This document shows positions 26,065 through 26,917 of a DNA stretch of 64,000 bases, one piece after another. Position 1 is the first letter of the stretch; every line of letters starts with the position of its first letter. The position numbers and the translations under genes were made by a program. Origin of the DNA: Candidatus Adlerbacteria bacterium (GTDB lineage: Bacteria; Patescibacteriota; Minisyncoccia; Phycocordibacterales; SBAW01). The stretch spans positions 3,548 through 67,547 of the forward strand of contig JBAXLB010000003.1 of the NCBI GenBank assembly GCA_037135035.1, written 5' to 3'. The notes below the pieces were generated by a model that saw nothing but the letters and a program-made list of their open reading frames with translations, was not told where the DNA came from and searched no databases.

Positions 26065-26322
26065 AGCCGTTGCCCGGAATCGAACCGGGGACCTACTCCT
26101 TCGCTTACACCTCTTTTTTTAAAAGCACTATAAGAGGGCTAGACTGTATTTTTCTCCAGACACTGGAGACCCTTGTCAGTCGTTCGGGCGCTTACGCGCC
26201 ACGGTCTTGGCCTGTGCCAGGCTATTAACCGTTATTCGGGATTCGCGTAGACGTTACCATCTACGTGGGCAGGGATTTTGCGTCCCACCATGGAGTTGCT
26301 CTACCAGCTGAGCTACAACGGC
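26065..26322 (-). tRNA. tRNA-Thr (inferred anticodon GGT) interrupted by a 185-nt intron in the anticodon loop
   Basis: 5' exon GCCGTTGTAGCTCAGCTGGTAGAGCAACTCCATGGT (26287-26322); 3' exon AAGGAGTAGGTCCCCGGTTCGATTCCGGGCAACGGCT (26065-26101); the exons give a canonical cloverleaf only when spliced. Confidence 0.75.
26102..26286 (-). ncRNA. group I-like intron inside the tRNA
   Basis: contains CAAGACCGT and GCGTAAGCGCCCG (P4/P6-like), ACTG...CAGTC (P7-like), a P9-like hairpin CCTCTT..AAGAGG; 5' exon ends in U and intron ends in G. Confidence 0.5.
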
Positions 26323-26323
26323 A

Positions 26324-26917
26324 CTACCTCGACTCTTGGTCGATGGCAGAGCAGATGATATCACGAAGCTTCTTGTTATTAAAGTAGAGGGTTAGGACAC
26401 CATACTTTGTTTTTCTTCTATAATTTCCAACTCCACGATGAGGAGTAATAATAGGTGCGTAAAATTGCTCTCTTTTTGCCTTTAAACTCTTGATCCAGAA
26501 TGTTAGTGCTTCTTCCCCGTTCATATCTCCAAATATCTGAAGTCCGAACTTTAACCTACGTATATCAATACTATAAAGTACCTCCAAAAATTGAATAAAT
26601 TTTCGTATAAGAAATGGGTCGCTATTGCCAAGTCGAACAGAATTTTTACTTCTTTTTGTCCCTTCTCCCCAATACAACCCGATACCAAGGCCATAGAGAA
26701 TGGCTGTAGAAATTGTTTTTGGTTTTTGAAATAAAAATGGATCGCCTTTTGGATTTCTTTTTTTATATATTGCGTCGCTAATACTCCGCTTTGGAATTTC
26801 ATACTTTGAAAGCCAGTAATCGATTTTTGTAGCGGAGCACTTTTCACGTTTCGCAATTTGAGCCGAAGAAAGTCCTTGTTTGCTGTATAAATCCACAAGC
26901 AGTTGTTTGGGAATCAT
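26324..26917 (-). CDS. LAGLIDADG-type homing endonuclease-like protein (single motif, AT-rich gene)
   Basis: ILYGLGIGLYWGEGTK (LAGLIDADG-like with acidic residue), N-terminal HTH-like segment; stop codon 1 nt from the tRNA 5' end. Confidence 0.55.
   Translation of the reverse strand: MIPKQLLVDLYSKQGLSSAQIAKREKCSATKIDYWLSKYEIPKRSISDAIYKKRNPKGDPFLFQKPKTISTAILYGLGIGLYWGEGTKRSKNSVRLGNSDPFLIRKFIQFLEVLYSIDIRRLKFGLQIFGDMNGEEALTFWIKSLKAKREQFYAPIITPHRGVGNYRRKTKYGVLTLYFNNKKLRDIICSAIDQESR

What the first reader, a model, noticed from the sequence alone, without database searches (positions are those of the whole stretch)
26065..26917. tRNA-Thr split by a group I-like intron, with an adjacent free-standing LAGLIDADG endonuclease gene
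The two tRNA halves form a canonical cloverleaf only when 185 nt are removed from the anticodon loop (ACTCC-ATGGT | intron | AA-GGAGT). The intron has group I hallmarks: exon ends in U, intron ends in G, CAAGACCGT and GCGTAAGCGCCCG elements as in Tetrahymena and Azoarcus introns, an ACTG/CAGTC P7-like pairing and a P9-like hairpin. A 197-aa LAGLIDADG-like ORF in a distinctly AT-rich stretch ends 1 nt before the tRNA 5' end. It lies outside the intron rather than inside it. This could be a homing endonuclease that has moved out of its intron, or a separate mobile insertion at the tRNA.
Basis: partly seen in the sequence, partly recalled or inferred. Interest (0 to 1): 0.7.

Follow-up and report, generated by a model that had tools for sequence, protein, structure and literature searches.

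The report
Split tRNA-Thr plus tRNA-hugging endonuclease gene
A threonine tRNA gene in a small-genome (Patescibacteria) bacterium is split by a self-splicing-type intron of an already described kind, and the gene directly in front of it belongs to a large, apparently undescribed family of probably selfish DNA-cutting genes that nearly always sit just upstream of tRNA genes.

Summary
On the minus strand, tRNA-Thr(GGU) (26322..26065) is split after anticodon base 36 by a 185-nt insert (26286..26102). A 197-codon AT-rich ORF (26917..26324) stops 1 nt before the tRNA.

The insert is a real group I-type intron. Across 53 homologous introns, 90.7% of cells pair in a P1-P9 model (32-47% in slid controls), and U.G at the 5' splice site and the terminal G are invariant. 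Rfam misses it. This "divergent" tRNA-Thr 36/37 intron class is already published for Patescibacteria.

Its homologues abut tRNA-Thr in 80 of 80 species genomes (79 GGU, 1 CGU); 60 of those tRNAs have the intron and 20 do not. Paralogues abut tRNA-Tyr, Trp, Met and Thr(UGU). A bona fide LAGLIDADG_3 family abuts tRNA-Asp in the same way.

The ORF is optional: there is a clean 720-nt indel between close relatives, and there are truncated remnants.

Best reading: a free-standing homing-endonuclease-like gene anchored at tRNA genes. Nuclease activity and target are inferred, not shown.

The parts
26287..26322 (-). tRNA-Thr(GGU) 5' exon (tRNA positions 1-36, ending in anticodon GGU)
   Evidence: Sequence. 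The spliced product is called tRNA-Thr(ggt) by ARAGORN. ARAGORN intron mode finds the gene.
26102..26286 (-). 185-nt group I-type intron inserted between tRNA positions 36 and 37. It belongs to the 'divergent' tRNA-Thr intron class of Patescibacteria.
   Evidence: Alignment A2 of 53 unique homologues. P1-P9 model: 90.7% of cells paired against 32-47% in slid controls, and 37 of 55 pairs with compensatory change. No Rfam hit. Class described in PMC13011429.
26268..26289 (-). P1 hairpin. Exon GGU (26289..26287) pairs with the guide GCC (26270..26268), with U.G at the splice site. The intron bases GGGA/UCCC extend the helix.
   Evidence: GC, GC and UG are invariant in 53 of 53 sequences. The extension covaries (helix 1).
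26142..26181 (-). P7 (GACUG 26181..26177 with CAGUC 26146..26142) enclosing the 3' strand of P3 (26172..26170) and the P8 hairpin (26168..26154). P3/P7 form the pseudoknot core.
   Evidence: P7 is invariant in 53 of 53 sequences. P3 and P8 covary (helices 4, 8, 9).
26187..26240 (-). 5' strand of P3 (26240..26238), P4 (26232..26227 with 26206..26201), P5 (26222..26210) and the P6 hairpin with GUAA loop (26200..26187)
   Evidence: P5 and P6 covary. P4 (ACGGU/ACCGU) is invariant (helices 5-7).
26102..26137 (-). P9 hairpin (26137..26110) and the 3' tail ending in the terminal G (26102). The last 3 nt (26104..26102) covary with CGC in the P1 loop (26282..26280).
   Evidence: helix 11 (P9) and helix 2 (the extra 3-bp pairing: CG 48/48; GC 37 with AU 7; CG 33 with UA 6).
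26065..26101 (-). tRNA-Thr(GGU) 3' exon (positions 37-73; no encoded CCA)
26324..26917 (-). 197-aa ORF with an N-terminal helix-turn-helix (about aa 4-54) and a C-terminal LAGLIDADG-like domain (aa 69-196, motif GLGIGLYWGEGTK with E85). Putative free-standing homing endonuclease.
   Evidence: - ORF.
- More than 1100 homologues and 7476 clusters at 50% identity.
- AF2 model, pLDDT 86.6.
- HTH matches.
- Abuts tRNA-Thr in 80 of 80 species loci.
26924..26951 (-). Promoter-like site (TTAGCA-16-TATAGT, with TG before the second hexamer) ending 7 nt before the ORF's ATG. This could give a leaderless or near-leaderless mRNA.
   Evidence: Consensus scan only. Not evidence of function.
26355..26382 (-). 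Promoter-like site inside the 3' end of the ORF, 33 nt upstream of the tRNA. No terminator-like site lies between the ORF and the tRNA.
   Evidence: Consensus scan only.
25959..26034 (-). Neighbouring intron-less tRNA-Thr(CGU), 30 nt downstream. It is part of the conserved local order ORF, tRNA-Thr(GGU), tRNA-Thr(CGU), prfB.

Best explanation
Two separable elements share one tRNA gene.

**1. The intron.** tRNA-Thr(GGU) carries an ORF-less group I-type ribozyme intron between positions 36 and 37. It presumably splices out of the precursor by the usual two transesterifications. The exon GGU pairs with the guide GCC, with U.G at the 5' splice site, and the terminal G marks the 3' splice site. This is the already described 'divergent' tRNA-Thr intron class of Patescibacteria.

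**2. The ORF.** The 197-aa ORF pressed against the tRNA 5' end is a free-standing, homing-endonuclease-like selfish gene, with a helix-turn-helix plus one LAGLIDADG-like domain. It would probably act as a homodimer (inferred).
- It is inserted as a discrete cassette of about 0.7 kb on the tRNA's strand. It is probably co-transcribed with the tRNA and released by RNase P cleavage (inferred).
- It is likely to spread by double-strand-break repair or homologous recombination, with the conserved tRNA (and the intron core) as the homology arm (inferred).
- That would explain why family members nearly always abut the 5' end of a tRNA gene, and why subfamilies are each tied to one tRNA.

**The link between the two.** The intron and the ORF are enriched together but each occurs alone. 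This fits 'collaborative homing': the intron interrupts the endonuclease's target in the anticodon arm and protects the host copy, while the endonuclease gives the ORF-less intron mobility. The ORF later decays and leaves the intron behind.

**Shown:** the anatomy, the intron fold, the ORF-tRNA linkage, the ORF's optional nature and its decay.
**Inferred:** nuclease activity, the target site and the homing itself.
For: **Intron**
- Exact cloverleaf after removal of the 185 nt.
- 53 homologous introns support P1-P9 with the P3/P7 pseudoknot: 90.7% paired against 32-47% in slid controls, 37 pairs with compensatory changes, and 0 of 500 shuffles reaching the observed values.
- U.G and the terminal G are present in 53 of 53.
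- All 112 introns whose exon junction could be reconstructed, out of the 120 found by motif, lie in tRNA genes at TGGT|AA.
- The class is published (PMC13011429).

**ORF-tRNA linkage**
- 80 of 80 species loci abut tRNA-Thr (79 GGU, 1 CGU), although the wider gene neighbourhood differs between loci. 76 are within 53 nt or overlapping.
- About 30 loci use the TAG at tRNA positions 8-10 as the stop codon.
- 127 of 140 family ORFs have a same-strand tRNA starting within -45..+100 nt of the stop codon, against 107 of 2559 control ORFs.
- Paralogues abut tRNA-Tyr, Trp, Met and Thr(UGU).
- An independent, Pfam-positive LAGLIDADG_3 family abuts tRNA-Asp in 4 of 4 loci, with or without an intron.
- Distant relatives sit in tRNA arrays of large viral contigs.

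**Selfish and optional**
- ORF GC is 0.37 against 0.49 for the window.
- L015 and L139 are about 90% identical in the flanks and differ by a clean 720-nt ORF cassette. A sharply divergent tract runs into intron P1-P2.
- Five truncated or internally deleted remnants still abut the tRNA.
- Of 94 intron loci with enough upstream sequence, 32 have the ORF and 57 do not.

**Endonuclease-like**
- The motif GLGxGLYWGEG has E85 invariant in A1 and present in 38 of 44 members of the wider family.
- The N-terminal HTH matches PHROGs annotated as HNH endonuclease.

**Association with the intron**
- 60 of 80 ORF loci carry the intron, against 3 of 95 complete Patescibacteria genomes in PMC13011429 Table 1.
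- The spliced anticodon arm is CC[AT]TGGTAAGG in 59 of 60 intron alleles, but in only 2 of 20 intron-less alleles next to the ORF (Fisher p about 1e-14, not corrected for phylogeny).
- The collaborative-homing precedent is F-CphI (PMC6083498).
Against: - No sequence model recognises a LAGLIDADG domain (Pfam and NCBIfam; PDB sequences).
- Foldseek gives only weak matches to generic alpha/beta folds, both for the whole model and for the C-terminal domain alone.
- hhalign against a genuine LAGLIDADG_3 profile is not significant (E 0.11).
- The first beta-hairpin expected after the motif is modelled with low confidence.
- 20 of 80 ORF copies sit next to an uninterrupted tRNA, and two of those (L014, L017) have the consensus arm. 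The intron is therefore not required for self-protection.
- The conserved exon arm could instead reflect splicing constraints or co-conversion.
- No cleavage site, target or homing event is demonstrated.
- The mosaic evidence rests on one allele pair.
Confidence: 0.6

Rival explanations
1. The ORF is a domesticated, non-catalytic DNA-binding protein (WhiA-like: a LAGLIDADG-derived scaffold plus an HTH). It would regulate transcription or processing of the tRNA gene it precedes and would not be mobile now.
For: - The N-terminal HTH is clear.
- The family is highly conserved, with intact 195-200-aa copies.
- The ORF is always on the same strand and abuts the tRNA, which suggests a functional coupling.
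Against: - The ORF is optional between close relatives and absent from 57 of 94 intron loci.
- Truncated remnants exist.
- Its composition is AT-rich relative to the host.
- Several paralogues occur per locus, at different tRNAs.
- The acidic residue at the canonical catalytic position is kept (E85).
- A genuine LAGLIDADG_3 endonuclease family occupies the same niche at tRNA-Asp.
Confidence: 0.17
2. The ORF is a maturase or splicing cofactor for the divergent tRNA-Thr intron, kept next to its substrate.
For: - LAGLIDADG proteins can act as group I maturases (established knowledge).
- 60 of 80 ORF loci carry the intron, far above the background rate (PMC13011429 Table 1).
- The intron is atypical and escapes RF00028.
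Against: - 20 of 80 ORFs sit next to intron-less tRNA-Thr.
- 57 of 94 introns have no ORF within 650 nt.
- Paralogues precede intron-less tRNA-Tyr, Trp, Met and Thr(UGU).
- The intron has a complete, well-paired core.
Confidence: 0.08
3. The ORF belongs to another kind of mobile element that uses tRNA 5' ends as attachment sites (for example a transposase or integrase-like protein with an IS630-type HTH). It would not be a LAGLIDADG nuclease at all.
For: - Weak IS630 and HTH_23 matches at the N-terminus.
- No LAGLIDADG sequence model matches.
- Foldseek does not find the fold.
- The insertion is discrete.
Against: - The weak IS630 and HTH_23 matches cover only the N-terminal HTH (about aa 5-40), and no Pfam or NCBIfam model matches the C-terminal domain.
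- No obvious terminal repeats or target duplication were seen by eye at the L015/L139 boundaries.
- hhalign's only alignment is in the expected LAGLIDADG register.
Confidence: 0.1
4. The endonuclease gene was once inside the intron and moved out.
For: Adjacency of an ORF-less intron and an endonuclease-like ORF.
Against: - No intron of this class among 53 unique and 120 further copies holds an ORF; lengths are 165-229 nt.
- The family is tied to tRNA 5' ends in general, including intron-less tRNAs.
Confidence: 0.05

Closest known systems
'Divergent group I introns' in tRNA-Thr(GGU) at 36/37 of Patescibacteria (Castelle et al. 2018, as cited in Nakagawa et al. 2026, PMC13011429)
   Same: - Same host tRNA, same insertion site and same phylum.
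- Same failure of RF00028 and default ARAGORN to detect it.
- Same ARAGORN miscall as Arg(GCG) 34/35.
   Different: Nothing essential; the window's intron is another member. This work adds a 53-sequence covariation model and an extra pairing between the P1 loop and the intron's 3' end. It also shows that many copies have an endonuclease-like ORF just upstream, which that paper does not mention.
F-CphI and the psbA intron of cyanophage S-PM2: 'collaborative homing' (Zeng, Bonocora and Shub 2009; PMC6083498)
   Same: A free-standing endonuclease gene lies next to a gene that carries an ORF-less group I intron. The logic proposed here is the same: the intron protects the host copy and the nuclease mobilises the intron.
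   Different: - F-CphI is an Endo VII-type enzyme in a phage, next to a protein-coding gene, and its cleavage is demonstrated.
- Here the protein is LAGLIDADG-like, the host is a cellular bacterium, the target gene is a tRNA, and cleavage is untested.
- The ORF here also occurs next to intron-less copies.
SegB (GIY-YIG) in the tRNA gene cluster of phage T4 (PMC2330249), and free-standing homing endonuclease genes of T-even phages ('intronless homing')
   Same: An optional free-standing homing endonuclease gene embedded among tRNA genes, inherited together with flanking tRNA sequence.
   Different: - A different nuclease family, in a phage rather than a cellular genome.
- No strict rule of abutting the tRNA 5' end on the same strand.
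- No overlap of the stop codon with the tRNA.
Single-motif homodimeric LAGLIDADG endonucleases (I-CreI, I-CeuI type) and I-DmoI
   Same: - One LAGLIDADG-like helix ending in G-E-G.
- A pseudo-palindromic candidate target, the anticodon arm (inference).
   Different: - No sequence-model match.
- An added N-terminal HTH.
- An extra helix between strands 3 and 4.
- The first hairpin is poorly modelled.
- The gene is not intron-encoded.
WhiA (LAGLIDADG-derived transcription factor with HTH)
   Different: WhiA has two degenerate LAGLIDADG domains without catalytic acids and a C-terminal HTH, and it is a conserved single-copy host gene. The present family has one domain, keeps the acidic residue, has an N-terminal HTH, and is optional and multi-copy.

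Membership tests
Group I intron | The 5' exon ends in U, which forms a U.G wobble with the internal guide in P1 | tested here: met
   Exon GGU pairs with guide GCC. GC, GC and UG are present in 53 of 53 sequences (helix 1).
Group I intron | The intron ends in G (omega G) | tested here: met
   G at the last intron position in 53 of 53 sequences.
Group I intron | Conserved core P3-P9 with the P3/P7 pseudoknot, supported by covariation | tested here: met
   - 55 pairs, 90.7% of cells paired against 32-47% in slid controls.
- 37 pairs with changes on both sides; 0 of 500 shuffles reach the observed values.
- P2, P3, P5, P6, P8 and P9 covary.
- P4 and P7 are invariant, which says nothing for or against them.
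Group I intron | Guanosine-binding site in P7, and an A-rich J4/5 that docks the splice-site wobble pair | tested here: inconclusive
   P7 (GACUG/CAGUC) and AA/AA flanking P4-P5 are present and invariant. The specific binding pair cannot be assigned from sequence alone.
Group I intron | Score at or above the gathering threshold of Rfam RF00028 | tested here: not met
   No hit even at E<=10. The same model does find the tRNA-Tyr intron in L015 (57 bits). The literature says this class escapes RF00028.
Group I intron | Guanosine-dependent self-splicing | not testable with these tools
   PMC13011429 tested the Asn and Asp introns, not the Thr class.
Patescibacteria tRNA-Thr(GGU) 36/37 'divergent' intron class | Host gene tRNA-Thr(GGU), insertion between positions 36 and 37, Patescibacteria genome | tested here: met
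   The window's protein is named Candidatus Adlerbacteria by NCBI. Table 1 of PMC13011429.
LAGLIDADG homing endonuclease | Match to Pfam or NCBIfam LAGLIDADG models (LAGLIDADG_1, _2, _3) | tested here: not met
   - None for the window ORF.
- None among 44 family members at E<=0.01.
- One paralogue has a sub-threshold LAGLIDADG_3 hit, E 0.02.
LAGLIDADG homing endonuclease | Motif helix ending in a conserved acidic residue (G-D/E-G) | tested here: met
   - GLGIGLYWGEGTK.
- E85, G86 and K88 are invariant in 38 sequences.
- E is present in 38 of 44 and G in 42 of 44 members of the wider family.
- hhalign puts GEG opposite the ADG of a true LAGLIDADG_3 family, but without significance.
LAGLIDADG homing endonuclease | alpha-beta-beta-alpha-beta-beta-alpha fold | tested here: inconclusive
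- Foldseek finds none.
- The first hairpin has low confidence, and an extra helix sits between strands 3 and 4.
LAGLIDADG homing endonuclease | Site-specific double-strand cleavage of a long target | not testable with these tools
The target is only hypothesised.
Free-standing homing endonuclease gene / collaborative homing | Optional gene between conserved genes, present or absent in close relatives | tested here: met
   - L015 against L139: a clean 720-nt indel between tRNA-Tyr and tRNA-Thr.
- 32 loci with the ORF, 5 with remnants and 57 without.
Free-standing homing endonuclease gene / collaborative homing | The nuclease cuts the intron-less allele at the intron insertion site, and the intron protects the host copy | not testable with these tools
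   Indirect evidence only. The consensus anticodon arm occurs in 59 of 60 interrupted alleles but in 2 of 20 uninterrupted alleles next to the ORF.

The most novel reading that the evidence does not exclude
Patescibacteria may harbour a large guild of free-standing LAGLIDADG and LAGLIDADG-like homing endonuclease genes, in at least two protein families, that use tRNA genes as homing sites. In this reading:
- They insert exactly at the tRNA 5' end and share the tRNA's transcript. Their stop codon often lies inside the tRNA, so RNase P processing would decide whether the mRNA keeps a stop codon.
- They jump between tRNA species by using the conserved tRNA 5' half as the recombination arm.
- The ORF-less tRNA introns of these bacteria (Thr 36/37, Asp, Tyr) persist and spread as immunity partners of these nucleases. 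That would be collaborative homing in cellular genomes.
- This would overturn the published inference that tRNA introns in this phylum have little mobility because they lack internal endonuclease genes.
Probability: 0.4. Interest if true: 0.75.

Novelty: new variant of a known kind. Interest (0 to 1): 0.62.

Why it matters
**The intron** is ordinary. It is one more member of a published class, although that class still lacks an experimental splicing test and a good covariance model. The 53-sequence alignment and structure built here could supply the model.

**The neighbouring gene** matters more.
- More than 1100 intact homologues, and about 7500 clusters at 50% identity, are all annotated as hypothetical. 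They can now be tied to one genomic rule: they sit on the 5' end of a tRNA gene.
- If they are nucleases, they give ORF-less tRNA introns in Patescibacteria a route to mobility. The recent survey (PMC13011429) concluded that horizontal transfer is limited because the introns lack internal endonuclease genes.
- They would extend 'collaborative' and 'intronless' homing from phages to cellular bacteria.
- They would offer a set of compact, naturally diversified enzymes, each apparently tuned to a different tRNA gene sequence.
- Annotation pipelines miss the tRNA and leave the ORF unnamed, which affects tRNA-based estimates of genome completeness for these organisms.

Tried and rejected
**Searches that gave nothing decisive**
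- Rfam at gathering threshold and at E<=10 gave no Intron_gpI hit. I did not take this as refutation, because the class is documented to escape RF00028 and the covariation is strong.
- Pfam, NCBIfam and PDB sequence searches of the ORF and of two family profiles matched only the HTH.
- Foldseek on the full model and on a C-terminal-domain-only model gave only weak matches to OmpA-like and IspF folds. Predicting the domain alone did not sharpen the result.
- hhalign against one genuine LAGLIDADG sequence and against a 30-sequence LAGLIDADG_3 profile was not significant.

**Hypotheses set aside**
- Maturase-only: rejected because ORFs occur next to intron-less tRNAs and introns occur without ORFs.
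- 'Moved out of the intron': rejected because no intron copy holds an ORF and paralogues sit at other tRNAs.
- Transposon-like: no catalytic domain is recognised in the C-terminal part, and no obvious repeats were seen by eye at the insertion boundaries. No formal repeat search was run.
- P10 pairing of the 3' exon with the guide: I looked for it by eye in the alignment. The exon is invariant while the guide flank varies, so P10 is not supported.

**Technical problems**
- A first script for exon arms used wrong stem offsets. It was corrected.
- The viral scan with the broad alignment A4 failed for lack of conserved stretches and was redone with A1.

**Not obtainable**
- I could not get a baseline set of ORF-less, intron-less Patescibacteria tRNA-Thr(GGU) genes. 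The exon-arm contrast therefore has no proper control.
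Full report
**1. The observation**

The finding is accurate to the base, reading the minus strand.
- A 36-nt tRNA 5' half lies at 26322..26287 and ends in the anticodon GGU.
- A 185-nt insert lies at 26286..26102 (GGGACGC...GUAAGCG).
- A 37-nt tRNA 3' half lies at 26101..26065.
- Joining the halves gives a canonical tRNA-Thr(GGU).
- Default ARAGORN and the Rfam tRNA model do not see the gene. 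ARAGORN in intron mode does, but calls it Arg(gcg) with the intron at 34/35.
- The 197-aa ORF runs 26917..26324. Its TAG stop is followed by one base and then tRNA base 1.
- The ORF has 37% GC, against 51% for the intron and 49% for the window.
- A source annotation of the identical protein names the organism Candidatus Adlerbacteria, a member of Patescibacteria/CPR.

**2. The intron**

Rfam gives no Intron_gpI match, even at E<=10 on the 1.1-kb region. I therefore collected homologues and tested the structure by comparison.
- Loci found through the neighbouring ORF and by an intron motif gave more than 170 copies, all of which lie in tRNA genes wherever a tRNA could be called. Wherever the exon junction could be reconstructed, it is TGGT|AA.
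- I aligned 53 unique introns (A2) and wrote a group I model by hand:
  - P1: exon GGU with guide GCC, and U.G at the splice site.
  - Then P2 and P3.
  - P4: ACGGU/ACCGU.
  - P5, and P6 with a GNRA loop.
  - P7: GACUG/CAGUC.
  - P8 and P9, followed by a terminal G.
- On this model 90.7% of cells pair, against 32-47% when partners are slid by 1-3 columns. 37 of 55 pairs show changes on both sides, and no shuffle of 500 reaches any observed measure.
- The U.G pair and the terminal G are invariant (53 of 53).
- The MFE fold of the window's intron alone reproduces most of the helices.
- As a positive control, the same Rfam model detects a canonical group I intron in a tRNA-Tyr of locus L015.
- One feature is not part of the standard model. 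CGC in the P1 loop covaries with the last three intron bases, including the terminal G (CG 48/48; GC 37 with AU 7; CG 33 with UA 6, helix 2).

This intron class is already in the literature.
- Nakagawa et al. 2026 (PMC13011429) list three Patescibacteria tRNA-Thr(GGU) 36/37 introns.
- They call them 'divergent group I introns', citing Castelle et al. 2018.
- They state that RF00028 and ARAGORN miss them and that ARAGORN tends to call them Arg(GCG) 34/35.
- Their splicing assays covered the Asn and Asp introns, not this class.

The intron in the window is therefore a new member of a known kind.

**3. The ORF as a protein**

- No Pfam or NCBIfam LAGLIDADG model matches. There are only weak HTH hits at residues 5-40.
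- The family is large: more than 1100 clusters at 90% identity, mostly 195-205 aa, 55-70% identical and all 'hypothetical'. There are 7476 clusters at 50% identity with E<=1e-3.
- An AlphaFold model (pLDDT 86.6) shows an N-terminal helical HTH domain and a C-terminal alpha/beta domain.
- Foldseek finds nothing convincing, either for the whole model or for a separately predicted C-terminal domain.
- Profile-profile comparison with a genuine LAGLIDADG_3 family is not significant. Its only alignment does place GLGLYWGEG..SVRLGNSDPxLI opposite AYVLGFFAADG..FIEFHSTDKxLI, which is the expected register.
- The acidic residue E85 is invariant among close members and present in 38 of 44 members at 27% mean identity.
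- The N-terminal module matches PHROGs annotated as HNH endonuclease.

**4. The ORF in its genomic setting**

This is the strongest result.
- In the 80 best species-level genomes holding a relative (301 were found), the ORF lies directly upstream of tRNA-Thr on the same strand in all 80 (79 GGU, 1 CGU). 76 are within 53 nt or overlapping.
- In about 30 loci the reading frame runs 10 nt into the tRNA and uses the TAG of GTAGCTCA (tRNA positions 8-10) as its stop. In a few it runs 21 nt or more. The C-terminal '..KPM' tails in the alignment are therefore encoded by the acceptor stem.
- The wider neighbourhood differs between loci. Some have tRNA-Met, tRNA-Met, tRNA-Asp, then the ORF, Thr(GGU), Thr(CGU), prfB, ftsE, ftsX. 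Others have Thr(UGU), Tyr, then the ORF, Thr(GGU), Trp. The ORF therefore follows the tRNA and not the surrounding genes.
- Across all fetched loci, 127 of 140 family ORFs have a same-strand tRNA starting between -45 and +100 nt of their stop codon, against 107 of 2559 other ORFs.
- More distant paralogues each abut another tRNA: Tyr(GUA) five times, Trp(CCA) four, Met(CAU) two and Thr(UGU) two. Most of these tRNAs have no intron.
- An unrelated, Pfam-positive two-motif LAGLIDADG_3 family (more than 1660 proteins, some annotated as homing endonucleases) sits in the same way on tRNA-Asp(GUC) in 4 of 4 loci examined. Two have an intron and two do not, and three of the four show the same 10-nt overlap (L004, L206, L208).
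- Distant relatives (24-32% identity) occur in tRNA arrays of 100-500-kb viral contigs.

**5. The ORF is optional and decays**

- Loci L015 (ORF present) and L139 (ORF absent) are about 90% identical in the flanks.
- In L139, tRNA-Tyr and tRNA-Thr are 8 nt apart.
- In L015, a cassette of about 720 nt sits between them. It holds a terminator-like hairpin, the ORF and a TATAAT box.
- The first 50 nt or so of the Thr intron (P1-P2) are only about half identical between the two loci, while the rest of the intron is about 95% identical. This looks like a recombination mosaic with one end inside the intron.
- Among 94 intron-bearing metagenome loci with at least 650 nt of upstream sequence, 32 have a full ORF, 57 have none and 5 have remnants.
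- The remnants are residues 92-192, 104-186, 153-195, 119-195, and 1-39 joined to 169-196. All lie immediately upstream of the tRNA, from overlapping it to about 160 nt away.
- This pattern of invasion, decay and loss, together with the AT-rich composition, is what is expected of a homing endonuclease gene. It is hard to reconcile with an essential host factor.

**6. Relation between the ORF and the intron**

- 60 of 80 ORF-bearing loci have the intron, against 3 of 95 complete Patescibacteria genomes in the published survey. Yet each element occurs without the other.
- The spliced anticodon arm of intron-bearing alleles is nearly constant: CC[AT]TGGTAAGG in 59 of 60, and in 101 of 112 metagenome copies whether or not the ORF is present.
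- Intron-less alleles next to the ORF almost all have other stems (18 of 20; Fisher p about 1e-14, not corrected for phylogeny).
- This is what collaborative homing predicts: a host copy must be either interrupted or mutated. That arrangement was shown for F-CphI and the psbA intron (PMC6083498).
- Splicing constraints or exon co-conversion would produce the same pattern, and I had no baseline of alleles lacking both the ORF and the intron.
- An inference, not a result: the anticodon-arm DNA is a natural pseudo-palindrome centred on the insertion site. That would suit a homodimer of a single-domain LAGLIDADG protein.

**7. How it most likely works**

*Shown*
- A group I-type intron at 36/37 with a conserved, covarying core.
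- An optional ORF cassette locked to the 5' end of the tRNA.
- No terminator-like site between the ORF and the tRNA.
- Promoter-like sites just before the ATG and inside the 3' end of the ORF (consensus level only).

*Inferred*
- The ORF is transcribed with the tRNA and separated from it by RNase P.
- The protein is a site-specific nuclease that cuts ORF-less tRNA-Thr(GGU) loci.
- Repair copies the cassette, with the tRNA (and the intron core) serving as the homology arm.
- Ectopic use of the conserved tRNA 5' half explains jumps to other tRNAs.
- The intron shields the resident tRNA and is mobilised in return.

I put about 0.6 on this reading. The rest is split among a WhiA-like regulator (0.17), another kind of mobile-element protein (0.10), a maturase (0.08) and an ORF that left its intron (0.05).

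**8. Novelty and verdict**

- The intron is already known.
- Free-standing homing endonuclease genes, collaborative homing and endonuclease genes in phage tRNA clusters (SegB, PMC2330249; mobE, PMC2790892) are also known.
- I found no description of the rest in the held library. That includes a very large, unannotated LAGLIDADG-like family in cellular bacteria that obeys a strict rule of abutting the tRNA 5' end, with tRNA-specific subfamilies, stop codons inside tRNAs, a parallel genuine LAGLIDADG_3 family at tRNA-Asp, and a link to ORF-less tRNA introns.
- The published survey concluded that tRNA introns in this phylum have limited mobility because they lack internal endonuclease genes. The adjacent ORFs reopen that question.
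- I rate this a new variant of a known kind, with interest 0.62.

Noticed in passing
L004:685-1607 (-); L206:1501-2271; L207:200-1135; L208:1501-2249: A genuine two-motif LAGLIDADG_3 (PF14528) family of more than 1660 proteins sits directly on the 5' end of tRNA-Asp(GUC) in 4 of 4 loci checked. Three of them (L004, L206, L208) overlap the tRNA by 10 nt and stop at the TAG of GTAGCTCA. Two of the tRNAs carry a 213- or 241-nt intron and two have none.
   Followed up: partly
L105, L149 (Thr UGU); L037, L115, L132, L153, L183 (Tyr GUA); L016, L078, L082, L122 (Trp CCA); L109, L184 (Met CAU): Distant paralogues of the window's ORF family each abut a different tRNA gene. Several loci carry two family members in a row (ORF-tRNA-ORF-tRNA).
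   Followed up: partly
window 26280-26282 with 26102-26104 (- strand): CGC in the P1 loop covaries with the last three bases of the intron, including the terminal G, across 48 sequences. This pairing is not part of the standard group I scheme. It could bring the 3' splice site next to P1.
   Followed up: partly
L015:1918-2126 and L139 (homologous region); L183:766-1036: tRNA-Tyr(GUA) genes just upstream of the tRNA-Thr locus carry group I introns. The L015 copy is detected by RF00028 (57 bits). In L183 the insertion appears to be at 35/36.
   Followed up: no
window 55828-55902 (+): tRNA-Ile with anticodon UAU. As far as I know, this is uncommon in bacteria, which usually decode AUA with a lysidine-modified CAU tRNA.
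   Followed up: no
window 59604-59981 (+): Standard tmRNA (85.6 bits), with tag peptide ASPYFSANDFAFAYAKA.
   Followed up: no
proteins P0128, P0134, P0145, P0148 and others: Long proteins (about 260-820 aa) made of 4-14 tandem copies of the family's N-terminal HTH module alone. The same module matches PDB 8vd6 ('CAP REPEAT') and 2lvs.
   Followed up: no
L209-L214 (IMG/VR contigs of 100-500 kb): Distant relatives (24-32% identity, still with GLGLYWGEGSK) lie inside tRNA gene arrays of large viral contigs. In L210 the ORF is on the opposite strand to the flanking tRNAs.
   Followed up: partly
L183:1744-1859 (+): LOOT RNA (RF03000, 49.8 bits) lies a few hundred bases downstream of the tRNA-Thr intron locus.
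   Followed up: no
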